This document shows, one piece after another, positions 16,606 to 29,129 of a stretch of 35,969 nucleotides of DNA (the first letter of the stretch is position 1; each line of letters starts with the position of its first letter). The stretch lies in contig JACRAA010000041.1 of assembly GCA_016213595.1 (NCBI GenBank), positions 1 to 35,969 on the forward strand, written 5' to 3'. The translations under genes were made by a program, and so were the position numbers. Below the pieces are notes generated by a model. That model was given only the letters and a program-made list of their open reading frames with translations. It made no database searches and was not told where the DNA came from. The stretch comes from Actinomycetota bacterium. GTDB lineage: Bacteria > Actinomycetota > Actinomycetes > Propionibacteriales > Propionibacteriaceae.

Positions 16606-17979
16606 TTGCCGCAGCATGCCCTCGCCCCCGACGGCTCCGACCCCCTCGAGTGGGAGTCGCGGACGACGAGTGACGAGGACGAGGTCGAGACCGAGTACTG
16701 GGCCGGACCGCTCCGCGCGGTCGTACAGCACTCCGTCTCGGAGACGACGTGGCGGGTGCGGGCCAGCGTCGTGAACACGGGCACGGAGCCCGTCTCGGTG
16801 TCGGGAGCGCGTCTCACGGTCGCCCCGGGCGAGGGCCAGGCCTGGGCCTGGGCTGCGGGGGCGGCAGGCCTGCTCGCCGTGGATCCGGGCAGCGCCGGAG
16901 TGTGGGCGCTGTCGCTACGCCGCGGCTCGCTCACCCGCTCGGGGAACGAGGTGGTGTGGCTCCCGGCAGGGACGACCGTCCAACCCGCCCGGCGGGTCAC
17001 CGTCGAGCTTGCCGGTCGCAGGTGTGGCGGCTGGCGCGAGGTGGCCTCGATGCTTCCCGCCTGGGTTCCGGTGCTCGCTGTACGTGGTGACGAGCCGGTC
17101 GACCTCGCGCTCCCGGACGCCGGTGTCGTCGCTCCTGGGTGCGCGATCGCGGAGGCGCCGGACGGGACCGAGATCCGCGGCTCGGGCATGCAGCGGGTCA
17201 GCGTGCGGGGCGCCTTCGGCGAGGTACGGCTCGAGCTCGCCTTCGCCCCGACGATGGGCGACGCCGTCGACGGCGCAGTACGCCAGATCGTCGGGCTCCT
17301 TCAGGAGGAGACCGGCGACCCGGAGCCGGTCGCCCGGGCAGATCCGGCTGGAGCCTCTGCCGACCTCGACCGTACGGCCCGACGTCTCCTCGTGCTGCAG
17401 GCGGGACACGCTCACGACGCCGCGGATGTCGTCGCGGCCCGGCTCGTCCCGGACGTCATCGACCTCGTCCGGACGGGTGGTGGCGCCGGCCCCTTCGTGG
17501 TCGCCGCGCTTGCCGGCGAGGTGCAGCGGCGGGACGACCCGCGCGCGCTGCAGGCACTGGTCGACGCCCTCCACCAGCTGGGTGGCGGGCCCGGCGTGGT
17601 CGTGGCGCTGACGCGGGTCTGGGCGGCGCTGTGGGGACTCGGGCGGGACCCTGAGCCCGTACGCCAGGCACTCGCCCGCGTGTCCGCCCTCCCCGCGCTC
17701 ACGAGACTGGAAGTCATCGAGCGCTCGCTGCTGACCGGTGACCGGGACGCGGTCGCGCGCCTGCACGCCGCCCTCGGTGGTGGGCTGCCGGGTGAGGCGC
17801 TCCCGGCCTGGGAGCCGTGGGAGGCCGCCTACGCGGTCGCCCTGACGTCGCTGCTCGCCGACGAGGACTCTGCCGCACCCGCTGTCGCACAGGCCGGGGA
17901 GCTCGTCGCCCGACGGCTCACCGCCGCGCACGCCGACGACCCGGACGTGCTCGCGTGGCTGCTGCTAGGGGAGCGGTAA
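16606..17979 (+). CDS. Hypothetical protein (457 aa), no family recognised
   Basis: Strong GC3 bias in this frame. The N-terminal half looks beta-rich (VVNTGTEPVSVSGARLTVAPGEG) and the C-terminal half is Ala/Leu-rich and helical. The TTG start is uncertain. The 3' end overlaps the convergent GNAT gene by 15 nt. Confidence 0.55.
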   Translation: MPQHALAPDGSDPLEWESRTTSDEDEVETEYWAGPLRAVVQHSVSETTWRVRASVVNTGTEPVSVSGARLTVAPGEGQAWAWAAGAAGLLAVDPGSAGVWALSLRRGSLTRSGNEVVWLPAGTTVQPARRVTVELAGRRCGGWREVASMLPAWVPVLAVRGDEPVDLALPDAGVVAPGCAIAEAPDGTEIRGSGMQRVSVRGAFGEVRLELAFAPTMGDAVDGAVRQIVGLLQEETGDPEPVARADPAGASADLDRTARRLLVLQAGHAHDAADVVAARLVPDVIDLVRTGGGAGPFVVAALAGEVQRRDDPRALQALVDALHQLGGGPGVVVALTRVWAALWGLGRDPEPVRQALARVSALPALTRLEVIERSLLTGDRDAVARLHAALGGGLPGEALPAWEPWEAAYAVALTSLLADEDSAAPAVAQAGELVARRLTAAHADDPDVLAWLLLGER

Positions 17980-18765
17980 GGCCGTGCGGCGCCACACGTA
18001 CGGCACGGTGGTCGTGATGGCGATCATCCCGCAGGCGGCCAGGATGGACCGGCTCATGACGGTGCAGTCCGCGTACAGGAACTTCACGCCCGCTGCCCGT
18101 GCCTCGCGTGCCCGTGCCTGGGTCAGCGCCCGGTAGACGCCGCGGTGGCGCCAGTCCTCCCGGATCGCGCCGCCCCACAGGCCGGCGAAGTCGGTGCCCG
18201 GCACACGATCGAGGCGGCCGCTGCCGACCACCTCACCGCTCGCTTCGGCGAACCACAGCGTGACCGAGGGGTTCCTGAGCCGACGCATCGTCATGTCGAC
18301 CATCCGGGGGATCTCGCCGAACACGCGGTTCTGGAAGGCGACCACACGCTCCACGTCGGCCAGCAGGTCTCCGTCGTCTCCCGCGCGGTGGATCGCGACG
18401 CCCTCCGGAACCGGGTCCTCACCCGCCAGGCCCGCGATCCGTCCCGCCATCACCGTCTCCCGCTCCTGAGGTCGCAGGGCGTGGGCGACGAGCAGGGAGC
18501 CGAGGTTCGCGGGCCCGTCGTGGTCGCGCGTCTTCCACTCGAACTCCTCGATGGACGGGTCGGAGACGAAGCTCTCGACCGTACGCGTGATGAGGGCCGA
18601 CAGCTCGTCAGCGGTGAGGCCGTTGAGGCTGCGGTACGTGACGAACCCGCGGCTCGGCATCCGCGCGACCCACAACGGTCCGTCGGTCCGGACGTCGTCG
18701 AAGTCCGAGGTTTCGACCGCCTCGCGCAGCTGGGCGTCATAGGCGGCCAGGAGACCGTGCCGCAT
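17965..18765 (-). CDS. GNAT family N-acetyltransferase with N-terminal extra domain
   Basis: C-terminal GNAT core: EVVGSGRL...IREDWRHRGVYRALTQARAREARAAGVKFLY. ATG 18765 was chosen; TTG 18795 is possible. Confidence 0.7.
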   Translation of the reverse strand: MRHGLLAAYDAQLREAVETSDFDDVRTDGPLWVARMPSRGFVTYRSLNGLTADELSALITRTVESFVSDPSIEEFEWKTRDHDGPANLGSLLVAHALRPQERETVMAGRIAGLAGEDPVPEGVAIHRAGDDGDLLADVERVVAFQNRVFGEIPRMVDMTMRRLRNPSVTLWFAEASGEVVGSGRLDRVPGTDFAGLWGGAIREDWRHRGVYRALTQARAREARAAGVKFLYADCTVMSRSILAACGMIAITTTVPYVWRRTALPLP

Positions 18766-18816
18766 GGCGGGCACTCTAGCCAACCGCGCTGTCAACGGAC
18801 GGCGGCAGGCCGACGC

Positions 18817-19263
18817 TCACGAGGGTTCAGCGGCGACCGCGCCGCCCGAGGAGCCGTCGAAGCGCCGGCCCAGCACGACGCAGTCCTGCTCCGCATAGCC
18901 GAGGGCCGCGTAGAAGCCCACGACTGCCGTGTTCGTACGGCGCACCATCAGCTGGATCTTCGGCATGCCGCGCTCCTCGACCCAGCGCTCGACTGCGGCC
19001 ACGAGGGCGAGGCCGATCCCTTCGCCACGCCGCGCAGGGTGCGCGGCGAGGTAGTAGACCCACCCGCGATGGCCGTCGACGCCGACCATGGCGGTACCCA
19101 CCAGCGTCTCGCCGTCGTACAGGCCGAGGACTGCCGAGGAGGGGCCGGCGACGGCGCGCGCGAAGTCGCCGTACGGGTCGTTCCAGGGCCGGGTGAGGTC
19201 GCTGGCGGTCCAGAGGTCCACCGCTGCGTCGGCCGCTTCGGTGCCGAGCTCGACGATCGTCAT
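18817..19263 (-). CDS. GNAT family N-acetyltransferase (YpeA-like, about 148 aa)
   Basis: LVGTAMVGVDGHRGWVYYLAAHPARRGEGIGLALVAAVERW...GFYAALGY. Start at ATG 19263 (MTIVEL). Confidence 0.8.
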   Translation of the reverse strand: MTIVELGTEAADAAVDLWTASDLTRPWNDPYGDFARAVAGPSSAVLGLYDGETLVGTAMVGVDGHRGWVYYLAAHPARRGEGIGLALVAAVERWVEERGMPKIQLMVRRTNTAVVGFYAALGYAEQDCVVLGRRFDGSSGGAVAAEPS

Positions 19264-19273
19264 GCCGGGGATG

Positions 19274-20158
19274 CTAGCGATGCTTGTCGGCCCGCCGGTG
19301 CTTGCGACGCTCCTCGGTGGCGTCACCGAGCAGCTCGGCGAGCGACAGGGGTCGTCGCCCGGTGAGGCGTTCGACGGCGTCGGTCACCGCAGACAGCTCG
19401 CCGGAGGCGATGGCGCTGTACGTGCTGACCCAGGCGTCGAGCTGCCACTGGGGCGCGCCGTACGACGCGCGAGACGCGTAGGCAGCCTCGAGGGTCTCGT
19501 TCTCGAACCGGTACGGACGGCCGGTGACGCGTCTCATGACCTCCGTGGCCTCGGCGAGGGTGAGCGCCTCCGGGCCGGTCAGGTCGTACGTGGCAGCGAC
19601 GTGGTCCTGGGGCGAGCGGAGCACCTCCGAGGCGACGCGGGCGACGTCCGCCCGTGCGACGCCGCCGAACCGGCCGTCGCCGGCGGGACCCCGGATGACG
19701 CCGCGCTCGTCGGCGAACAGCGGGAGGAAGTCGAGGTACAGGGAGTCGCGCAGGAACGTCCACCCCATGCCCGACAAGCGCAGCAGCTGCTCCGTGTGCC
19801 AGTGGTCGCGCGCGAGCGTGAACGTGGCGTCCGGGGCCGCGCCGAGGAACGACGTGTAGACGACGTGTCCGACTCCGGCGTCCGTGGCCGCCTGGACGAA
19901 CGTGCGGTGCTGTACGAGACGGTCGGCGCTCTCGGCGCCGGACACCATGAAGAGCAGGTCGACGCCCTCGAGGGCCTTCCGGGCGGACGGGCCATCTCCG
20001 TACGACGCCTGGACGACGTCACCCTCGAGGCCTGCCGGGAGCCTGGCGGGATCGCGGACCACGAGCCGAAGGGCTTGACCGGCGTCCTGCAGAGCGCGGG
20101 CGACGAGTCCGCCCACATGTCCTGTCGCGCCGGTGACGGCGATGAGTGTTCGCGCCAT
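19274..20158 (-). CDS. NmrA-like / SDR-family NAD(P)H-binding protein
   Basis: MARTLIAVTGATGHVGGLVARAL Rossmann motif. SD GAGGAG lies upstream. Confidence 0.8.
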   Translation of the reverse strand: MARTLIAVTGATGHVGGLVARALQDAGQALRLVVRDPARLPAGLEGDVVQASYGDGPSARKALEGVDLLFMVSGAESADRLVQHRTFVQAATDAGVGHVVYTSFLGAAPDATFTLARDHWHTEQLLRLSGMGWTFLRDSLYLDFLPLFADERGVIRGPAGDGRFGGVARADVARVASEVLRSPQDHVAATYDLTGPEALTLAEATEVMRRVTGRPYRFENETLEAAYASRASYGAPQWQLDAWVSTYSAIASGELSAVTDAVERLTGRRPLSLAELLGDATEERRKHRRADKHR

Positions 20159-22251: not shown

Positions 22252-23700
22252 CTAGCCCGGCGGGCCGTACCGGGGGATGATGATGCCCGCCAGGGCCAGC
22301 CACGTGGCGAAGACGAACCACGCGCAGAGGACGGCGAAGACCGCGATCCGTACGTTCGGGTTCGGGAAGGTACGTGTGGCCAGCTGCTCGAAGCCGCGTG
22401 CAACGAAGTAGGCGACGGGGAGCAGCATCGGCAGGACATATCGACCCTGCGGCTGGAAGTCCTGCGTGTACGAGTGGTAGATGCTCAACGCGACAGGGAT
22501 GGGGATCGCGACGAGCAGCACGCCGTGGAGCAGCCCCTGGTCCCAGGACGTCAGCCCGGGCGCGGAGAGCTCCAGATCCTCGGCGCCGGACGTGCCCTGC
22601 TCACCGGCCTTCGTCCCGCGCCGTGCACCCCACCTCACCACGCCGGGGACCAGCGCGCCCATCCCGGCGACCGTGATGGCGGCGTAGCCGCCGTAGATCG
22701 CCGCCGGCAGGCGCACCGTCTTGTAGCCGAACAGGCCGACGGAGCTCATGCCGGTGATGACGATCCAGCCGTGGTGAACGAGCATGTCCCAGAGGCCCCA
22801 GCCCTTGGCGAGCGCGGACGAGGCGCCCGGCTTGGCGAAGTCCCGGCCGTACAGCATCCCCTGCTCGCCGGACGTCCTGAGCCCCAGGAAGTCCCCGTTG
22901 TACAGGTAGGCGTTCCGGATGAACCACCAGCCGGCCAGGACGAGCACGACGGCGCAGATCATCCCCAGCTGGACCAGGGTCTGCCGCAGGTGCGCGGGGC
23001 GTTCGCCGACGGGAGCGCGGCGCCAGGCGCGGAGGCGGTCGGCCAGGTAGACGACGACGCTGAGAAGCACGAACCCGTACGCCGTGAAGTAGGACAGGAG
23101 GCACACGGAGATCGCCAGCCCCAGCAGCAGGACGTTCCCCGTCCCCCACCCGTCACGGAGCCCTCGCAGCCAGGCGTAGATGATCAGCGCGGCCGAGAAG
23201 ATCGCCAGGGAGTCGCTGTTGAGGTAGCAGCTGAGGAAGGCCAACTGGGGCAGAAGCGCGATGAAGGCGACGAAGAACCAGCGCCAGATCCCGTGGAGCA
23301 GCCTGCGGGAGATGAGGATGCTCAGCGCCACCGTGCCGGTCCCGAAGATCACGGAGGCGAACCGTGATGCCAGGTACAGGACGTGACCGTCCGTGCTGAA
23401 CAGGCTCGCGATGGAACGCAGCAACGCCGCGACGAGCGCCGCCAGGATCGGCTCGAAGGCGTACGAGGTGCCCCAGATCGCGTCGCGGGTCGCGGGATCC
23501 GTGCCCGACGGGATGACGTGGCGCTCCGAGATGTACCGCACGAGGCGGTACCGCATGTTCTCGTCCGGGGCCGCGTCGAACGGGACAGTCCAGGCCCAGG
23601 TGGTGTAGAGCACGAAGCAGGCGACGATGAAGGTCACCGGGAGCAGCCGCTCGACGGACGAGGCGAGCCGTTCGGAGCCCCTCGTCGCTCCGGTCGTCAC
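22252..23700 (-). CDS. GT-C fold glycosyltransferase, ArnT/PMT_2-like (family 39/83-like), polytopic membrane protein
   Basis: There are many TM segments. The first extracytoplasmic loop carries PDENMRYRL, an ArnT-type DExRY motif. GTG 23700 overlaps the gtrA-like stop (GTGA). The 779-aa track ORF is an in-frame artefact upstream of this start. Confidence 0.75.
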   Translation of the reverse strand: MTTGATRGSERLASSVERLLPVTFIVACFVLYTTWAWTVPFDAAPDENMRYRLVRYISERHVIPSGTDPATRDAIWGTSYAFEPILAALVAALLRSIASLFSTDGHVLYLASRFASVIFGTGTVALSILISRRLLHGIWRWFFVAFIALLPQLAFLSCYLNSDSLAIFSAALIIYAWLRGLRDGWGTGNVLLLGLAISVCLLSYFTAYGFVLLSVVVYLADRLRAWRRAPVGERPAHLRQTLVQLGMICAVVLVLAGWWFIRNAYLYNGDFLGLRTSGEQGMLYGRDFAKPGASSALAKGWGLWDMLVHHGWIVITGMSSVGLFGYKTVRLPAAIYGGYAAITVAGMGALVPGVVRWGARRGTKAGEQGTSGAEDLELSAPGLTSWDQGLLHGVLLVAIPIPVALSIYHSYTQDFQPQGRYVLPMLLPVAYFVARGFEQLATRTFPNPNVRIAVFAVLCAWFVFATWLALAGIIIPRYGPPG

Positions 23701-24134
23701 CCCCGCCTCGTCGTCGTCGGCGTTCGCGTCGCGGCGCGCCGGAAGGAGAAGAACCTGTGTCCGAGGAAGCTGCCGATCGCGACCACGACGGTGATGACGA
23801 CCTGCGCGAGCACGGGGTTCATCCGGAGCCCCTCGACGAACAGCGGGGCGGCGGCGATGGGGGCGATCATGCCCGAGCCCCACACGACCATGAACCGGAG
23901 CAGGTCTCCGCGGAGCGACCCGGTCGAGTGGAAGACGAAGCGCCGGTACAGCGGGAAGGCGACGGGTATCGGCGCGACCTGGGAGAACACCGTCGCCAGC
24001 ATGTAGTGCCAGCCGAGGCGCAGGCCCAGCGCGACCATCGCCCAGCTCAGGACGGAGACCCCGCCAGCGGCCATCAGGTACCGCACCTCTGTGCGCCGGA
24101 GGACCGAGGCAGCCTGGTCCAGGCGCATGTTCAT
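23697..24134 (-). CDS. GtrA family protein (putative lipid-linked sugar translocase)
   Basis: About 145 aa with four hydrophobic segments. RYLMAAGGVSVLSW...FPLYRRFVFH...GSFLGHRFFSF is typical of GtrA. Confidence 0.75.
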   Translation of the reverse strand: MNMRLDQAASVLRRTEVRYLMAAGGVSVLSWAMVALGLRLGWHYMLATVFSQVAPIPVAFPLYRRFVFHSTGSLRGDLLRFMVVWGSGMIAPIAAAPLFVEGLRMNPVLAQVVITVVVAIGSFLGHRFFSFRRAATRTPTTTRRG

Positions 24135-24211
24135 GTGTAGAGCGTAACTGCCGGCTGAGGCCCGGCTGTGACTGCTGGCTTCGGTCGGCCCGGCGGGTAA
24201 GGTCTCCACCC

Positions 24212-25351
24212 GTGGCCCGCCTGCTGTTCTCCGTCCCGTACGTCACCGGATCCGAGTCGACGTACGTCGCCCAGGCGATGGCCTCCGACCATTGGCAGGG
24301 CGACGGACCCTTCACGAGACGCGCCGTGGCCCTGCTGCAGCAGCTCACCGCCGCGAGGGGAGTCATCCTCACGACCTCCTGTACGCACGCGCTCGAGCTC
24401 GCGGCCGTCCTCGTCGGGTTGAAGCCCGGCGACGAGGTGATCTGCCCGAGCTTCACGTTCTCGTCGACCGCGACCGCGATCGTCTCCAGGGGCGCCGTGC
24501 CCGTCTTCGTCGACATCGAGCCACGCACCCTGAACATCGACCCGGCAGCCGCGGAGGCCGCGATCACGCTGAGGACGAAGGCGATGTTCATCCTCCACTA
24601 CGGAGGCGTGGCCGCTGACCTCGACCAGCTCCTCGCGATCGCGGACCGGTACGGGCTGGCGCTCGTGGAGGACAACGCCCACGGGCTGGGCGCGAGGTTC
24701 CGTGGCCGTCACCTCGGCACGTTCGGCACGTTGGGGACGCAGAGCTTCCACGAGACGAAGAACGTCGCGATGGGGGAGGGCGGCGCGTTGCTCGTCCAGG
24801 ATCCCGAGCTCCTGGCTCGCGCTGAGATCGTGCGCGACAAGGGTACGAACCGCGCGCGGTTCTGGCGGGGCGAGATCGACAAGTACACGTGGGTGGACGA
24901 AGGCTCGTCGTACCTGCCGAGCGACATCCTGGCGGCGGTGCTCTGCGCGCAGCTCGAGGGGTTCGACGACATCCAGGCGAAGCGGATGCACGTCTGGGAC
25001 CGCTACGACACGGAGCTCGCCGACTGGGCGGGCCGGTCGGGCGTCGACCAGATGTACGTCCCGCCGGAACGTTCCCAGCCGGCGCACCTGTACGTCCTGA
25101 TGATGCCCTCCGCCGAGGACCAGCACGGGCTGATCCAGCACCTGCGCGAACGCGACGTCGTCGCGACGTTCCACTACCAGCCGCTCGACCAGTCGCCCGC
25201 CGGCCTGGCCTTCGGGCGCGCCCCCGAGCCGTGCACGGTCACGTACGACCGGGCCGCCCGGCTGGTCAGGCTGCCGGTCTACGCGAGGATGACGGACGCC
25301 GACATCGACCGCGTCATCGAGGGCGTGACCTCGTACACCCCGTGCTGCTGA
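24212..25351 (+). CDS. DegT/DnrJ/EryC1/StrS aminotransferase, WecE-like (dTDP-4-amino-4,6-dideoxyhexose transaminase)
   Basis: It aligns by eye along its whole length with E. coli WecE: GDGPFTRR, PSFTFSSTA, FHETKN (the PLP lysine), REKGTNR-like RDKGTNRARFWRGEIDKYTWVDEGSSYLPSD, and FHYQPL. Confidence 0.85.
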   Translation: MARLLFSVPYVTGSESTYVAQAMASDHWQGDGPFTRRAVALLQQLTAARGVILTTSCTHALELAAVLVGLKPGDEVICPSFTFSSTATAIVSRGAVPVFVDIEPRTLNIDPAAAEAAITLRTKAMFILHYGGVAADLDQLLAIADRYGLALVEDNAHGLGARFRGRHLGTFGTLGTQSFHETKNVAMGEGGALLVQDPELLARAEIVRDKGTNRARFWRGEIDKYTWVDEGSSYLPSDILAAVLCAQLEGFDDIQAKRMHVWDRYDTELADWAGRSGVDQMYVPPERSQPAHLYVLMMPSAEDQHGLIQHLRERDVVATFHYQPLDQSPAGLAFGRAPEPCTVTYDRAARLVRLPVYARMTDADIDRVIEGVTSYTPCC

Positions 25352-25361
25352 CAGCCATGTA

Positions 25362-25377
25362 GGGCCGGCGCCGGCCC
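25362..25377. terminator. GC-rich palindrome GGGCCGGCGCCGGCCC between convergent genes; candidate bidirectional terminator
   Basis: Perfect 16-bp palindrome in the 46-bp gap between the wecE-like and GT2 stops. No U-tract. Confidence 0.45.
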
Positions 25378-25397
25378 CGGAGGATGCGCCGCCGTGG

Positions 25398-26417
25398 TCA
25401 CTGCGAGTCGGCCTGGCGTCTCCGCTGGGCGGCCGCCACAGCGTCGCGCTCAGCCTCGGAGCTGCTCGCCACCGCGGGTGCCGACGGAAGACCGACCTGG
25501 CGTCCTGTGTCCCCCTGGATCCGTACCACGTAGGTAGGGCGGTTCTGCGAGCTCATGTACAGCCGGCCCACGTAGTTGCCGATCACGCCCAGGCTCAGCA
25601 TCGTCAGGCCGGAGAAGAGCGACGTCATGGCGGCCTGGGAGGCCCAGCCGGCAGGGGTCGGGTCGGAGACGAAGTAGCTGATGATCACGTAGACGAACAG
25701 CCCGAGCCCCAGGAGGCAGGCGAAGTACCCGGCGACCGTCACGAACCGCAGCGCCTGGGTGGTGCCGGTGGTCATGTCCCAGGCGAGGCGTACCAGGGAG
25801 GACCAGGTGTAGCCCGAGCGGCCGTGGGTGCGTGTGTCCATCTTCACCGGCACGGCGATGACGCCGTTCGTCGACCATCCCAGCAGGACGTCGATGTACG
25901 CGGCGCCCGCCACCGAGCCGAACCCCTCCCGGAGGTCGGTGCGCATCGCGACGAACGACGAGAACAGCCGCGCGTTGGCGAGGCCCATCCGCTCCATGAC
26001 CCGCTTCACGCCCTGGCTCGTCGCGTTGCGCCACACGTTGTGCTCCTCGTCGACGGCGTTGCCGTAGACGACGTCGACGAGCGGGTCCGCCAGCGGCTCC
26101 AGCAGGAGGTGGATCTCCTCCGGGCGGTGCTGGAGGTCGTCGTCCATGAGGACGGTCACCTCGTACCGCGCGCGGTCGATGCCGGCGAGGCTGGCGTGGT
26201 GCTGTCCGTAGTTGCGCCGGAGGAGGACGGCCGTCACGCGGGGGTCCTCGATCTCGAGGCTCCGTGCGACGGCGTACGTGTCGTCCGGCGAGCCGTCGAC
26301 GATGAGCAGGATCTCGTACGCCTCCGCCACGTCGGCCAGTGACGCGTGCAACCTGGCGACGAGCTCGGGCAGACTGTCGCGGGAGCGGTAGCAGGGGATG
26401 ACGACGGAGACGTTCAC
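25398..26417 (-). CDS. Family 2 glycosyltransferase, polyprenyl-phosphate sugar synthase type (ArnC/GtrB/PpgS-like)
   Basis: VSVVIPCYRS...LLIVDGSPDDT...RNYGQHHA...MDDDLQHRPEE plus two C-terminal TM helices. GTG start at 26417. Confidence 0.85.
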   Translation of the reverse strand: MNVSVVIPCYRSRDSLPELVARLHASLADVAEAYEILLIVDGSPDDTYAVARSLEIEDPRVTAVLLRRNYGQHHASLAGIDRARYEVTVLMDDDLQHRPEEIHLLLEPLADPLVDVVYGNAVDEEHNVWRNATSQGVKRVMERMGLANARLFSSFVAMRTDLREGFGSVAGAAYIDVLLGWSTNGVIAVPVKMDTRTHGRSGYTWSSLVRLAWDMTTGTTQALRFVTVAGYFACLLGLGLFVYVIISYFVSDPTPAGWASQAAMTSLFSGLTMLSLGVIGNYVGRLYMSSQNRPTYVVRIQGDTGRQVGLPSAPAVASSSEAERDAVAAAQRRRQADSQ

Positions 26418-26452
26418 AGCTAGGGATTATCCCCGACGGTCTCCTGTCCGTC

Positions 26453-26674
26453 ATGCACCTGGCTGGTCGAGCGGGCACGAGCCGCGTCGACCGGCGTCCC
26501 CTCACCGAGGCGTACGCCTCGCCGTCCGTCTTCACCGGCACCTACCAGGTACCGCAGGCGAGCTACTTCCTCCTGGGGGACAACCGCGACGTCTCCAGCG
26601 ACGGCAGGAGTGGCGTGAGCCGTACGTGGGCGGGGCTGCGGTACGAGGACGCCTCCTCGGCGCACGCGCACTGA
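26453..26674 (+). pseudogene. Signal peptidase I (LepB) C-terminal relic
   Basis: VDRRPLTEAYASPSVFTGTYQVPQASYFLLGDNRDVSSDGR matches the LepB box E region (VP.G.YF.LGDNR..S.DSR). The N-terminal catalytic Ser/Lys boxes are absent, because that space is occupied by the GT2 gene on the other strand. Confidence 0.55.
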
Positions 26675-26682
26675 GCCCTCGC

Positions 26683-27609
26683 TCAGAGTCCCCTGCTCGC
26701 GGCGCGCCGGATGCGCCCGTCGCCGTACCGCACCCCGCCGGCGGCTCGCTGGGCTATCGCCGGCCAGACGCAGACCGCCCGTTCGAGGACCCAGAGGGGA
26801 GCCCAGAGGGCTGCGGTGACGGGGAAGACGCGCCCGCCTCCAGCACGGCGCCGGCCGACCTCGGCGAGCCCGATAGCGACCAGCGCCAGCAGGCCGAGCG
26901 CTCGCGGTCTGTGCCGCAAGCCCACGATGACGGGAAGCAGCGCAGCCTCGACGACCAGGCGTGACGGTTGGGCGAAGTCGTCGTAGGCCTGCCGGACGCG
27001 CTGGCTGACGAAGTGAGCAGCAGTGGGCGGCCGCCGGCCGACGTACAGGTCGTCGGCCAGCTCCACGACACCGCCGCGCGCCCCGACCGTACGGATGAGC
27101 TCCAGGTTCTCGAACAGCACGTCCCCGTCGTACCCCTCCGGCAGGACGATGCCCCTGCGGACGATCAGGGTGCCCGGGTAGTCGCTGCCGAGAGCCCGGT
27201 TGAGCAGCTGCCGGCCGGTGTCCCAGCGCGCATGCCACGGCCAGTCCGTGAACACGTTCTGCGGCGCGACGAGGTCGGCCTGCTCCAGCCGCCGGAGACC
27301 CTCTGCGAGCGCGTCCCGCTCGTACCGCACGTCGTCGTCGGCGATCACGACAGCCTCATGCCGGGCGAGAGTGAGACCCGTCATCACTCCTTTGACCTTG
27401 CCGTTGCGTCCAGGCCAGTCCCCAGGCGGGAGGACGCGAGCGTACGGGGACCACACCTGGAGGTGCTGGGCGAACAGGTCCGCCGGGGAGCCGTCGACGA
27501 CGGTCACGTCGACGAGGCCGGCGAGCCCGCGCAGGTAGTCCGTGAGGTCGTCGAGGTCGGCGTCGTCCTGCCACCGGGGCGGCAGGACGTACTCGGCCGT
27601 CGCCGTCAT
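26683..27609 (-). CDS. GT-A fold (family 2-like) glycosyltransferase with C-terminal membrane helices
   Basis: VTVVDGSP, VIADDDV (DXD motif) and C-terminal hydrophobic segments. ATG 27609 overlaps the DUF1989 stop (ATGA). The track ORF upstream of that point is unsupported. Confidence 0.7.
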   Translation of the reverse strand: MTATAEYVLPPRWQDDADLDDLTDYLRGLAGLVDVTVVDGSPADLFAQHLQVWSPYARVLPPGDWPGRNGKVKGVMTGLTLARHEAVVIADDDVRYERDALAEGLRRLEQADLVAPQNVFTDWPWHARWDTGRQLLNRALGSDYPGTLIVRRGIVLPEGYDGDVLFENLELIRTVGARGGVVELADDLYVGRRPPTAAHFVSQRVRQAYDDFAQPSRLVVEAALLPVIVGLRHRPRALGLLALVAIGLAEVGRRRAGGGRVFPVTAALWAPLWVLERAVCVWPAIAQRAAGGVRYGDGRIRRAASRGL

Positions 27610-28214
27610 GTCGAAGGACCGTCCTCCTGTCGGGGCACGATCGCGTAGTCGACAGGCTTGCAGATCCCGCCGTTTGACTTCTCTGCGGAACAGGCCGTGA
27701 GGGCTACGAAGAGGTCCATCTGCGCCTCGACGACGAACCGGTCTCCTGGCTTCGACCGGGGTGGGTCGATGTGCATGATCCCGTTGTCGTCCGTCCAGAC
27801 GTTCATGAAGATGTTGAACGAGGTGCCGATCTGGTCGTCGGTGACACCGTACGGAGCCAGCCCTGTCGCGAGGTTCTCCAGGCAGCTGGGGTGCCGCTCC
27901 CCGTGGAGCTCCGGGTAGAGGAGGTCGAACGTCTGCTGGCTGCACGGTGTGAGCGTGAAGTCGTGCCGGCCGCAGTCGTCCTCGATGATCCGGAACATCG
28001 GGCGCGACCTGTTGCTGTACAGCAGGTCGTTGGTCGTCTGGTAGATGCAGTTGGCGTAGTCGATCGTCCTGCCGCTGGACAGCCATTCACGGGTGTCGTC
28101 CGCGCTCACGGCGAACAGGTCGCTGACCTGGCCACCGGTCGTGTCGACGACGACGAGGAGGTCACCCTCCTTCAGCTCGAACCCCGCGCCGGTCTGCGGT
28201 TCCAGCCTGTTCAT
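27606..28214 (-). CDS. DUF1989 (urea carboxylase-associated / YcgI-like) family protein
   Basis: GGQVSDLFAV...LYSNRSRPMFRIIEDDCGRHDF...HPSCLENL...FNIFMNV...KPGD...ACSAEKSNGG is the DUF1989 pattern as I recall it. The ATG overlaps the upstream stop (ATGA at 28211-28214). Confidence 0.75.
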   Translation of the reverse strand: MNRLEPQTGAGFELKEGDLLVVVDTTGGQVSDLFAVSADDTREWLSSGRTIDYANCIYQTTNDLLYSNRSRPMFRIIEDDCGRHDFTLTPCSQQTFDLLYPELHGERHPSCLENLATGLAPYGVTDDQIGTSFNIFMNVWTDDNGIMHIDPPRSKPGDRFVVEAQMDLFVALTACSAEKSNGGICKPVDYAIVPRQEDGPST

Positions 28215-28957
28215 GCAGCCTCGTTTCCTGGTGGCGGATCATCAGAGGTGGTCAGGTCGACAGGAGGCTGCCAGCCGTCCGGGACAGCCCGGCCCGAGTA
28301 CTGCCGCGCCTCGGAGATGGAGCCGTGGTCGGCCACCATGGGGTTCACATACCCCTGGAGACGTACGTCGCGGCGACGGATGGTGTCGCGCATCCTCTCG
28401 TACCGTCCGGACGCTCGCAGGGCCTCGAACTGCCGGTGCAGGTTGAAGACCAGGACCGGCCAGGGGGTGCGGCGGGCGATGCGCGAGGCCTGCGGATGCA
28501 TCCCGATGACGAAGAAGGCGACCCCGGCCAGGCTGAACGCGAAGTGCGGGTTCGACGGGTCGGCCGAGACGCTCGTATCCCACTCCTGGGACTCGCCCTG
28601 GTCCAGGTCATGGAGCAGGCTGAGCTGGCGCCACAGCAGCGCCTCGAACTCCGCCTCGGAGGAGACGACCGGGCCGCGGAACACCGCCACGAACGAGACG
28701 AAGGTGTCGTCGTCGGCCTCCAGCCCCGTGGTCCTCGCGTACGAGGCGAGCGCCTCGTACAGCTGCGTACTGTCCGGGTCGGCGAGCTCGTCGACCATCT
28801 CGATGTGTGCGGACCGACGGGTGAACACCGAGCGCGCGCCCAGGCAGGGGTAGTCGTCTCTGAGCACCAACGCGCGCAGAGACTCCGCCATGTGCTCGGG
28901 AGTGAGGGCAGGCGTGGTCACGTCGCGCTCATTGCCTGACGCGAATGTGCGATTCAC
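28211..28957 (-). CDS. YqcI/YcgG family protein (family of heme-dependent N-hydroxylase GntA)
   Basis: DYPCLGARSVF, FVSFVAVF, FEALLWRQL, NPHFAFSLAGVAFFVIGMHPQASRIARR, LVFNLHRQF, IRRRD and SEARQYSG. Start at GTG 28957 after GGGAGGAGG. Confidence 0.8.
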   Translation of the reverse strand: MNRTFASGNERDVTTPALTPEHMAESLRALVLRDDYPCLGARSVFTRRSAHIEMVDELADPDSTQLYEALASYARTTGLEADDDTFVSFVAVFRGPVVSSEAEFEALLWRQLSLLHDLDQGESQEWDTSVSADPSNPHFAFSLAGVAFFVIGMHPQASRIARRTPWPVLVFNLHRQFEALRASGRYERMRDTIRRRDVRLQGYVNPMVADHGSISEARQYSGRAVPDGWQPPVDLTTSDDPPPGNEAA

Positions 28958-29129
28958 CCGCCCTCCTCCCTTTCCTGGAACATCTCCGGCTAGCCCCCAG
29001 ATACCCCCACCCCTTCCCAGCAAAACGGTTTCGGGCGCTGCGTCGGGGCCTGCACGACCGTGAAGGGGCGTTCAGCGGAGAGCGCTCACACGGGACATCA
29101 CGAGGGCTTGGGGATGGGAGAGGTGGGTA

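What the first reader, a model, noticed from the sequence alone, without database searches (positions are those of the whole stretch)
22252..26417. Arn-like three-component module predicted to decorate an extracytoplasmic polymer with a free 4-amino-4,6-dideoxyhexose
Seen: four gene products sit together. One is a WecE-like aminotransferase (24212-25351). One is a polyprenyl-phosphate-type GT2 with C-terminal TM helices (25398-26417). The third is a GtrA-like protein whose stop overlaps the start of the fourth (GTGA at 23697-23700). The fourth is a GT-C enzyme carrying an ArnT-type DExRY loop motif (PDENMRY). Established: GT2 + flippase + GT-C is the generic three-component route for modifying glycoconjugates outside the membrane, as in ArnC/ArnEF/ArnT, GtrB/GtrA/GtrC and CsbB/GtcA/YfhO. 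ArnB, the aminotransferase of the Arn system, belongs to the same DegT family. Inference: the donor would be a dTDP-4-amino-4,6-dideoxyhexose loaded onto polyprenyl phosphate. I recognise no N-acetyl or N-formyl transferase within the module itself. The two GNAT genes elsewhere in the window (17965-19263) are 3 kb away, beyond an unrelated NmrA-like gene, a tRNA, a secreted-protein gene and an SDR gene. The amine may therefore stay free and cationic, as with L-Ara4N on lipid A. In an actinobacterium this would be a charge-modifying decoration of arabinogalactan, teichoic-type polymers, lipoglycans or glycoproteins.
Basis: partly seen in the sequence, partly recalled or inferred. Interest (0 to 1): 0.62.

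Follow-up and report, generated by a model that had tools for sequence, protein, structure and literature searches.

The report
Minimal amino-sugar wall-decoration gene cassette
A Propionibacteriaceae-type actinobacterium carries a rare, self-contained four-gene cassette that most likely makes a 4-amino-6-deoxy sugar, loads it on a membrane lipid, flips it and attaches it to a cell-surface polymer. It is a stripped-down version of an uncharacterised cassette common in gut Clostridia, and whether the amine stays free and positively charged is still open.

Summary
Four intact genes sit at 22252-26417:
- a GT-C-fold membrane glycosyltransferase, with no Pfam or NCBIfam hit but a confident AlphaFold model whose PDB matches are GT-C enzymes;
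- a GtrA flippase whose stop overlaps the GT-C start (GTGA);
- a true WecE-type dTDP-4-keto-6-deoxyglucose aminotransferase;
- an ArnC-like polyprenyl-phosphate GT2.

The link between them is not chance. The same four genes, in the same order, occur in six further actinobacterial loci with at least four other, unrelated sets of flanking genes. A GtrA–GT-C fusion exists. In 80 Clostridia loci holding this GT-C family, a WecE homologue lies within 10 kb in 56 and directly adjacent in 44.

The own genome has RmlA, RmlB and RmlC-RmlD to supply the substrate. It has no WecD and no cassette-type ATP-grasp.

The "free cationic amine" idea is only partly supported. No acyltransferase travels with the actinobacterial cassette. 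However, ArnC, the nearest solved relative of the GT2, rejects unformylated donor. Most Clostridial cassettes also add an amino-acid-ligase-like ATP-grasp, sometimes fused to WecE.

The cassette is rare in its family (4 of 201 genomes) and was absent from 400 other Actinomycetota. I found no paper describing it. I rate it a new variant of a known kind, of moderate interest.

The parts
22252..23700 (-). GT-C-fold polytopic glycosyltransferase (482 aa). It belongs to an unnamed family at the edge of Pfam PMT_2/DUF2142 and is the predicted extracytoplasmic transferase that takes the sugar from polyprenyl phosphate.
   Evidence: AlphaFold2 pLDDT 93.5. The Foldseek PDB matches are GT-C enzymes. P45, D46 and E47 are invariant; R113, R262, D270 and the QPQGRY block at 416-421 are conserved. 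There are 430 clusters (50% identity) at E<=1e-30 among 1.84 billion representatives.
23697..24134 (-). GtrA-type small membrane protein (145 aa from ATG 24134; the longest ORF runs to 24209). It is the predicted flippase for the lipid-linked sugar. Its TGA overlaps the GT-C GTG.
   Evidence: PF04138 at 9e-15. The start comes from the orthologue alignment. The GTGA at 23700-23697 is read from the sequence. Fused to the GT-C in P0019, 613 aa.
24135..24211 (.). 77-bp divergent intergenic region between gtrA and wecE; presumed promoter region.
   Evidence: Start-site correction. The L091 orthologue has a gap of the same length. No sigma-70 consensus match was found here.
24212..25351 (+). WecE-type PLP aminotransferase: dTDP-4-keto-6-deoxy-D-glucose to dTDP-4-amino-4,6-dideoxy-D-galactose (Fuc4N). 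The C4 configuration is inferred from orthology.
   Evidence: NF008687 scores 484.8 bits against a cut-off of 375. PDB 4piw and 6blg match at 1e-99. In a tree it groups with E. coli WecE and the Clostridial cassette WecEs, on a branch of 2.9 changes per column away from another DegT of the same genome.
25398..26417 (-). ArnC/GtrB/DPMS-type polyprenyl-phosphate glycosyltransferase (GT2, 339 aa) with a C-terminal membrane region.
   Evidence: PF00535. ArnC NF007986 matches full-length at 150 bits, below its cut-off of 529. ArnC structures match at 1e-37. The equivalents of ArnC D48, N77, D100xD102xQ104, R137 and R205 are conserved, but R128 is Ala and R131 is Glu in all six actinobacterial copies.
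26426..26454 (-). Promoter-like site just upstream of the GT2 start (ATGACG-17-GATAAT).
   Evidence: Consensus scan only: 1 site found against 0.1 expected.

Best explanation
This is a self-contained, horizontally mobile four-gene cassette for extracytoplasmic glycosylation with a 4-amino-4,6-dideoxyhexose.

Proposed steps:
1. RmlA and RmlB, encoded elsewhere in the genome, make dTDP-4-keto-6-deoxy-D-glucose.
2. The cassette's WecE orthologue aminates it to dTDP-Fuc4N.
3. The ArnC-like GT2 transfers the sugar to polyprenyl phosphate on the cytoplasmic face.
4. GtrA flips the lipid-linked sugar.
5. The GT-C enzyme, using the invariant Asp46/Glu47 of its first outer loop, transfers it to an envelope acceptor. 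That acceptor is most likely a cell-wall polysaccharide.

Shown here: gene identities, folds, the conserved linkage, the fusions and the availability of the precursor pathway.

Inferred: the donor identity, the C4 configuration, the lipid carrier and the acceptor.

Whether the amine is left free in this actinobacterial form is unresolved. If free, the decoration would be cationic and the route would be shorter than any characterised one. I put that at roughly 40-50%, given that the general mechanism is right.
For: **Gene identities.**
- WecE passes its equivalog cut-off.
- The GT2 is closest to ArnC, then GtrB, then DPMS, over its full length.
- GtrA matches PF04138.
- The GT-C fold comes from a pLDDT 93.5 model with GT-C PDB matches.

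**Linkage.**
- Seven actinobacterial loci (window, L091, L089, L096, L098, L105, L106) keep these genes in the same order and orientation. L105 ends inside wecE, so its GT2 gene is not seen.
- The flanks are unrelated: SDR/YqcI operon, leuS/ABC transporter, narGHJI and CitMHS. L096 and L106 share the narGHJI neighbourhood.
- A GtrA–GT-C fusion exists.
- Of 80 Clostridial loci with this GT-C family, 56 have a WecE homologue within 10 kb, 44 have it adjacent and 53 have an ArnC-like GT2.

**Precursor supply.** RmlA, RmlB and RmlC-RmlD lie on contig C476.

**Points bearing on a free amine.**
- No acyl- or formyl-transferase and no deacylase lies in or beside any actinobacterial copy.
- The genome has no WecD: the best match is 18 bits against a cut-off of 195.
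- The genome has no homologue of the Clostridial ATP-grasp.
- The genome's other DegT gene does sit next to a hexapeptide acetyltransferase.
- All six actinobacterial GT2s replace the ArnC R128/R131 equivalents by Ala/Glu. The loop charge is about -3, against about 0 to +1 in ArnC and 52 Clostridial GT2s.

**Acceptor hint.**
- In Clostridia the family often sits among rhamnose, Wzm/Wzt, LCP and phosphoglycosyltransferase genes.
- The own genome has a Wzm/Wzt pair and a large GT2.
Against: - There is no biochemical evidence for any step.
- The genome is a draft, 87% complete in 487 contigs. An unlinked acyltransferase or ATP-grasp could therefore be missed.
- ArnC, the closest solved relative of the GT2, does not accept the unacylated donor (PMC12690121). 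As far as I know, no characterised system loads a free-amine sugar directly.
- The conserved residues of the GT-C are nearly the same in the actinobacterial and the ATP-grasp-associated Clostridial proteins. Only four group-specific columns differ. That argues for a similar donor head-group in both.
- The GT2 charge reversal is a single evolutionary event, because the actinobacterial clade is monophyletic. The few Clostridial loci without an ATP-grasp nearby keep Arg/Lys at that position.
- The acceptor is unknown.
Confidence: 0.7

Rival explanations
1. The pathway is the same, but an enzyme encoded outside the cassette N-acylates the amine before lipid loading. A housekeeping GNAT, hexapeptide acetyltransferase or formyltransferase would do this. 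The decoration would then be a neutral Fuc4NAc-like residue.
For: ArnC requires the N-formyl donor. Mycobacterial PpgS loads GalNAc. Most Clostridial cassettes carry an ATP-grasp ligase, twice fused to WecE. The GT-C pocket residues are almost identical in both lineages. The genome is incomplete and encodes GNATs and a hexapeptide acetyltransferase elsewhere.
Against: No acyltransferase is co-inherited with the cassette in any actinobacterial context. The genome has no WecD orthologue and no ATP-grasp homologue. A cassette that moves between genomes and depends on an unlinked specific enzyme is less parsimonious.
Confidence: 0.25
2. The GT2/GtrA/GT-C trio transfers an ordinary sugar such as Glc, GlcNAc or Man, and the aminotransferase is merely a neighbour serving another pathway.
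For: Many three-component systems use common UDP-sugars. 24 of the 80 Clostridial GT-C loci have no WecE within 10 kb.
Against: WecE is adjacent to the GT-C in 44 of 80 Clostridial loci and sits inside every actinobacterial cassette. The own genome has no other pathway that uses dTDP-Fuc4N: no WecD and no ECA-type genes were found. WecE-negative GT-Cs are scattered among WecE-positive ones in the tree rather than forming a separate clade.
Confidence: 0.04
3. The acceptor is a secreted or membrane protein (PMT-like O-glycosylation) or a membrane glycolipid/lipoglycan, not a wall polysaccharide.
For: The fold matches PMT and oligosaccharyltransferases as well as it matches ArnT. The actinobacterial cassettes are not embedded in polysaccharide loci. 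The protein has almost no soluble outer domain.
Against: 40 of the 80 Clostridial loci have Rml, Wzm/Wzt, LCP, phosphoglycosyltransferase or large-GT2 genes within 10 kb. Pfam DUF2142 proteins are reported inside streptococcal rhamnose-polysaccharide loci (PMC9746298).
Confidence: 0.2

Closest known systems
Arn (PmrHFIJKLM) pathway: ArnB, ArnA, ArnC, ArnD, ArnE/F, ArnT (L-Ara4N on lipid A)
   Same: The logic matches: a DegT-class 4-aminotransferase makes a nucleotide 4-amino sugar, an ArnC-type GT2 loads it on polyprenyl phosphate, a small membrane flippase moves it, and a GT-C enzyme transfers it outside. ArnC is the closest solved relative of the GT2 and ArnT is among the fold matches.
   Different: The aminotransferase is a WecE orthologue acting on a dTDP-hexose, not ArnB (194 bits against a cut-off of 631). 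There is no ArnA and no ArnD. GtrA replaces ArnE/F. The GT-C has no detectable sequence similarity to ArnT. The host is Gram-positive, so lipid A cannot be the acceptor. Arn loads the N-formyl sugar and deformylates it later.
Three-component transmembrane glycosylation systems of Gram-positives and O-antigen modification (CsbB/GtcA/YfhO, GtlA/GtlB, GacI/J/K/L, GtrA/GtrB/GtrC)
   Same: It has the same three parts, a Pre-P GT2, a GtrA-family flippase and a GT-C transferase, and the same predicted topology of the reaction (PMC8035078 and PMC11127046, listed).
   Different: A dedicated nucleotide-sugar aminotransferase is part of the unit. The GT-C is from a different, uncharacterised family. The predicted sugar is a 4-amino-4,6-dideoxyhexose rather than Glc, GlcNAc or Gal.
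Uncharacterised Clostridial cassette: GT2, GT-C, WecE, ATP-grasp and two half-size EamA proteins
   Same: The GT-C is homologous (32-39% identity), WecE is homologous (42-49%) and the GT2 is ArnC-like.
   Different: The actinobacterial form lacks the L-amino-acid-ligase-like ATP-grasp. It uses one GtrA instead of the ArnE/F-like EamA pair. Its GT2 has an acidic loop where the others have Arg/Lys.
Mycobacterial/corynebacterial GalN decoration of arabinogalactan (PpgS, Rv3632, Rv3779)
   Same: It is an actinobacterial polyprenyl-P route that ends in a free-amine sugar on a wall polysaccharide, and it uses a GT2, a small membrane protein and a GT-C (PMC9671496).
   Different: That route starts from UDP-GalNAc and needs a still unidentified deacetylation. 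It has no aminotransferase. The PpgS model scores only 22 bits on this GT2. The wall type is different.
Enterobacterial common antigen branch WecE/WecD (dTDP-Fuc4NAc)
   Same: The aminotransferase is orthologous, so the first product is probably the same, dTDP-Fuc4N.
   Different: WecD is absent from the genome. The sugar is predicted to go onto polyprenyl monophosphate as a single residue, not into a cytoplasmically built repeat unit.

Membership tests
Three-component (Pre-P GT2 / flippase / GT-C) extracytoplasmic glycosylation systems | Polyprenyl-phosphate GT2 with a GT-A domain, a DXD motif and C-terminal membrane helices | tested here: met
   PF00535. Full-length matches to ArnC, GtrB and DPMS structures. 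DDDLQ motif and a hydrophobic region at 222-285.
Three-component (Pre-P GT2 / flippase / GT-C) extracytoplasmic glycosylation systems | Small GtrA-family (or equivalent) membrane protein linked to the transferases | tested here: met
   PF04138 at 9e-15. Stop/start overlap with the GT-C. Fused to the GT-C in P0019.
Three-component (Pre-P GT2 / flippase / GT-C) extracytoplasmic glycosylation systems | GT-C-fold transferase with a conserved acidic residue in the first outer loop | tested here: met
   Model pLDDT 93.5. GT-C PDB matches. D46 and E47 invariant after the first helix.
Three-component (Pre-P GT2 / flippase / GT-C) extracytoplasmic glycosylation systems | Demonstrated lipid-linked monosaccharide intermediate and transfer to an envelope polymer | not testable with these tools
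   Needs biochemistry.
Arn pathway | ArnB (UDP-4-keto-pentose aminotransferase) | tested here: not met
   NF008658 scores 194.5 bits against a cut-off of 631. The WecE equivalog is passed instead.
Arn pathway | ArnA formyltransferase/decarboxylase and ArnD deformylase | tested here: not met
   No such gene lies in or beside the cassette in any of the actinobacterial loci. I did not search the rest of the genome specifically for ArnA or ArnD.
Arn pathway | ArnC equivalog | tested here: not met
   NF007986 scores 150 bits against a cut-off of 529. The R128/R131 equivalents are Ala/Glu.
Arn pathway | ArnT (GT83, Pfam PMT/PMT_2) acting on lipid A | tested here: not met
   No Pfam hit for the window protein. 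No sequence match to any PDB chain, even with a profile. Fold similarity only, TM about 0.5.
WecE (dTDP-4-amino-4,6-dideoxygalactose transaminase, NF008687) | Score above the curated equivalog cut-off, full-length, with the PLP lysine | tested here: met
   484.8 bits against 375 over residues 5-375. The HETKN lysine aligns with E. coli WecE. It groups with E. coli WecE in a tree.
Enterobacterial common antigen pathway | WecD acetyltransferase accompanying WecE | tested here: not met
   The best TIGR02382 match in the genome is 18 bits against a cut-off of 195.1.
Pfam PMT_2 (PF13231) / DUF2142 (PF09913) | Score above the gathering threshold | tested here: inconclusive
   The window protein has no hit at E<=0.01. 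Relatives at 33-40% identity do pass PMT_2 and/or DUF2142.

The most novel reading that the evidence does not exclude
The actinobacterial cassette loads an unacylated dTDP-4-amino-4,6-dideoxyhexose directly onto polyprenyl phosphate. It would use a GT2 whose lipid/sugar-binding loop has switched from basic to acidic. This would give a cationic wall decoration in four genes, without the acylate-then-deacylate detour seen in Arn and in the mycobacterial GalN pathway and, as far as I recall, in the Francisella GalN and Bordetella GlcN pathways too.
Probability: 0.35. Interest if true: 0.7.

Novelty: new variant of a known kind. Interest (0 to 1): 0.5.

Why it matters
**An uncharacterised gene set.** The general logic of GT2, flippase and GT-C is textbook. 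This particular set is not:
- The GT-C family has 430 clusters (50% identity) at E<=1e-30 and no characterised member that I could find.
- It is tied to a WecE aminotransferase in hundreds of gut Clostridia.

**The simplest version to test.** The actinobacterial form has four genes, no ligase and one flippase. That makes it the most tractable version for working out what the family does.

**If the amine is free.** It would be a new, shorter route to a positively charged wall decoration in Gram-positives. That could affect resistance to cationic peptides, ion binding and phage adsorption. It would also show that an ArnC-type enzyme can take a free-amine donor.

**Distribution.** The cassette is patchy: 4 of 201 genomes in the family and none of 400 others in the phylum. 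That pattern fits a horizontally acquired surface-variation module.

Tried and rejected
- **Pfam, NCBIfam and PDB profile searches on the GT-C** gave nothing. Only structure prediction placed it.
- **Literature searches** found no description of this cassette. I searched DUF2142; WecE/GtrA/GT-C; three-component + aminotransferase; Fuc4N/viosamine + ATP-grasp; and DEXRYAE.
- **GNATs at 17965-19326 as the missing acyltransferase: rejected.** One is a generic NF002959 GNAT and the other matches nothing. WecD models score about 21 bits. The cassette occurs without them in the other contexts.
- **The neighbouring GT2 (26683-27609) as part of the module: rejected.** It belongs to the YqcI/DUF1989 operon and is absent next to the other cassettes.
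- **Residue differences between actinobacterial and ATP-grasp-linked GT-Cs** as a clue to the donor. Only four columns differ (T78/I, A115/V, G292/S, Q413/S) and none involves a charge. This is uninformative.
- **The GT2 loop charge reversal** is suggestive. It is one evolutionary event, and Clostridial loci without an ATP-grasp do not show it.
- **A pseudogene or frameshift reading of 26420-27600** was considered. It resolved into a normal GT2 gene plus a 265-bp gap.

Full report
**What is there**

The window is about 69-70% G+C and is contig C281 of a draft genome of 3.1 Mb, 487 contigs and 87% completeness. The closest named relatives of its proteins are Propionibacteriaceae MAGs.

Third-position G+C and ORF analysis give four genes at the reported place:
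- GT-C at 22252-23700 (-);
- gtrA at 23697-24134 (-);
- wecE at 24212-25351 (+);
- GT2 at 25398-26417 (-).

The GTGA stop/start overlap at 23700-23697 is real. The gtrA start should move to ATG 24134, based on an alignment with four orthologues. That leaves a 77-bp divergent gap to wecE. A promoter-like hexamer pair lies just upstream of the GT2 gene (consensus only).

**Gene identities**

*WecE*
- It passes the curated NCBIfam equivalog NF008687 for dTDP-4-amino-4,6-dideoxygalactose transaminase (484.8 bits, cut-off 375). It is far from the ArnB, PseC and DesI models.
- In the PDB, E. coli WecE (4piw) and 6blg score about 1e-99 over the full length, with the PLP-lysine motif SFHETKN aligned. 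The best ArnB chain scores 5.5e-48.
- In a tree, the actinobacterial cassette WecEs, the Clostridial cassette WecEs and E. coli WecE form one group. A long branch separates them from another DegT of the same genome.

*GT2*
- It matches ArnC structures over residues 2-299 (1e-37), then GtrB, then DPMS.
- It keeps the equivalents of ArnC D48, N77, D100xD102xQ104, R137 and R205, and has a hydrophobic C-terminal region.

*GtrA*
- It matches PF04138.

*GT-C*
- It has no Pfam, NCBIfam or PDB sequence match.
- A model built on 56 homologues has mean pLDDT 93.5.
- Its PDB matches are GT-C enzymes, including AglB/STT3, Pmt, ArnT, ALG9, DPY19, AftB and Emb.
- P45-D46-E47, just after the first helix, are invariant. 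So are R113, R262, D270 and a QPQGRY block.
- Relatives pass Pfam PMT_2 and/or DUF2142.

**The four genes are a unit**

Six further actinobacterial loci (65-70% G+C) carry the same genes in the same order and orientation. L105 ends inside wecE, so its GT2 gene is not seen. The flanks differ:
- one locus is syntenic with the window (L091, 87% GT-C identity);
- one lies between leuS/ABC-transporter genes and esterase-like genes (L088-L090);
- two lie next to narGHJI (L096, L106);
- one lies next to a CitMHS transporter, and there GtrA and the GT-C are one 613-aa protein (L098);
- L105 lies at a contig end, past an aldo/keto reductase gene.

Nothing else is shared among these neighbourhoods.

Within the cassette, the GT2 and WecE are 61-67% identical between lineages and the GT-C is 44-46% identical.

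**The wider family**

A scan of one genome per species found at least 482 confirmed relatives of the GT-C. The best 80 are all Bacillota, mostly gut Clostridia such as Blautia, Lachnospiraceae and Christensenella.

In those 80 loci:
- a WecE homologue (42-49% identity) lies within 10 kb in 56 and within 500 bp in 44;
- an ArnC-like GT2 lies within 10 kb in 53.

Clustering all ORFs shows a recurrent six-gene cassette: GT2, GT-C, WecE, ATP-grasp and two small proteins of about 113 and 122 aa.
- The small proteins are half-size EamA proteins, the architecture of ArnE/ArnF.
- The ATP-grasp is closest to the L-amino-acid ligases BL00235 and BacD.
- In two loci the ATP-grasp is fused to WecE in one 744-aa protein.

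In Clostridia, therefore, the amine is very probably acylated, perhaps aminoacylated, before lipid loading.

Forty of the 80 loci have rhamnose-synthesis, Wzm/Wzt, LCP, phosphoglycosyltransferase or large-GT2 genes within 10 kb. This points to a wall polysaccharide as acceptor. DUF2142 proteins inside streptococcal rhamnose-polysaccharide loci are noted in PMC9746298.

An exhaustive HMMER search finds 430 clusters (50% identity) at E<=1e-30.

Earlier notes of this scan describe the ATP-grasp version repeatedly. I reached the same picture independently from the loci above.

**Position of the actinobacterial form**

- The twelve high-scoring non-Clostridial GT-Cs form one clade, with SH-aLRT 98, among the WecE-linked Clostridial branches. 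They include every one traced to a high-G+C locus or named Propionibacteriaceae.
- The cassette is rare. It is in 4 of 201 genomes sampled from the same family, 2 of 14 from the same genus, and none of 400 other genomes sampled across the phylum.
- This fits a single old acquisition followed by patchy spread or loss. The direction of transfer is not proven because the tree is unrooted.

**Precursor supply and the acylation question**

What the genome has and lacks:
- The own genome encodes RmlA, RmlB and a fused RmlC-RmlD on contig C476. dTDP-4-keto-6-deoxyglucose is therefore available.
- It has no WecD.
- It has no homologue of the Clostridial ATP-grasp or of the EamA pair.
- The two GNATs 3 kb away are generic or unassignable and do not travel with the cassette.
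- The genome's other DegT gene, on C139, sits between a Wzx-type flippase and a hexapeptide acetyltransferase. Where this organism N-acetylates an amino sugar, the acetyltransferase is linked.

These points favour a free amine, but they are negative evidence from an incomplete genome.

Against a free amine:
- ArnC cannot use UDP-Ara4N, only the formylated donor (PMC12690121).
- The mycobacterial GalN pathway loads GalNAc and deacetylates later (PMC9671496).
- The GT-C pocket residues barely differ between the two lineages.

One positive hint:
- At the positions of ArnC R128 and R131, which that paper assigns to Und-P coordination, all six actinobacterial GT2s have Ala and Glu within an acidic DEE patch.
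- At the R131 position, ArnC has Arg and 50 of the 52 Clostridial cassette GT2s have Arg or Lys. The remaining two have Tyr.
- The loop charge is about -3 against about 0 to +1.
- A cationic donor could compensate for this change. However, it is one evolutionary event, and the few Clostridial loci lacking an ATP-grasp nearby do not share it.

**Verdict**

The three-component reading with a WecE-made 4-amino-4,6-dideoxyhexose donor is well supported (about 0.7). The free-amine claim stays open, at about 0.4-0.5 given the mechanism.

The system works like Arn and like the Gram-positive three-component systems. It is a member of the latter class by architecture, but it is not an Arn pathway. ArnB, ArnA, ArnD, ArnE/F and ArnT membership all fail, and ArnC is only the nearest relative.

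I found no publication on this cassette. It is a new variant of a known kind. Its main value is as the simplest experimentally tractable form of a widespread uncharacterised GT-C/WecE module.

Noticed in passing
L019 and L069 (about 11279-13513 in L069): In two Clostridial loci WecE and the ATP-grasp ligase are fused in one 744-aa protein. This ties the ligase to the aminotransferase product.
   Followed up: partly
L098:3011-4852: GtrA and the GT-C are fused into one 613-aa protein in an actinobacterial relative (P0019).
   Followed up: partly
window 26485/26486 versus L091:5521-7214: Compared with an 87-90% identical relative, the window lacks about 1.7 kb. The missing stretch holds a Crp-family regulator, a DUF6448 gene and most of a signal peptidase I gene, and lies directly upstream of the GT2 gene. 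The cassette itself is 90% identical in DNA against 85-87% for the flanks.
   Followed up: partly
window 25398-26417, residues 119-126 of the GT2: All six actinobacterial cassette GT2s have an acidic patch (NAVDEEH). ArnC and 52 Clostridial homologues have Arg/Lys at those positions (ArnC R128/R131).
   Followed up: partly
own genome contigs C139 (L095) and C77 (L094): A second amino-sugar locus holds a Wzx-type flippase, a DegT and a hexapeptide acetyltransferase on C139. On C77 there is a phosphoglycosyltransferase C-terminus, a GFO/IDH/MocA oxidoreductase, a dehydratase-like SDR and another DegT. This looks like a di-N-acetylated sugar pathway.
   Followed up: partly
P0095, P0107, P0134, P0145, P0172 and others: Many members of the GT-C family are 620-815 aa long, with an N-terminal extension of 200-390 residues that has no Pfam match.
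   Followed up: partly
window 26683-29023: An adjacent operon encodes a YqcI/YcgG protein (GntA-like heme N-hydroxylase model, 280 bits), a DUF1989 protein and a membrane GT2. It is syntenic in L091 but absent beside the other cassettes, so it is not part of this module.
   Followed up: no
own genome contigs C386 and C383: A Wzm/Wzt-type ABC exporter pair and a large multi-domain GT2 resemble those next to Clostridial GT-C genes. They may make the acceptor polysaccharide.
   Followed up: no
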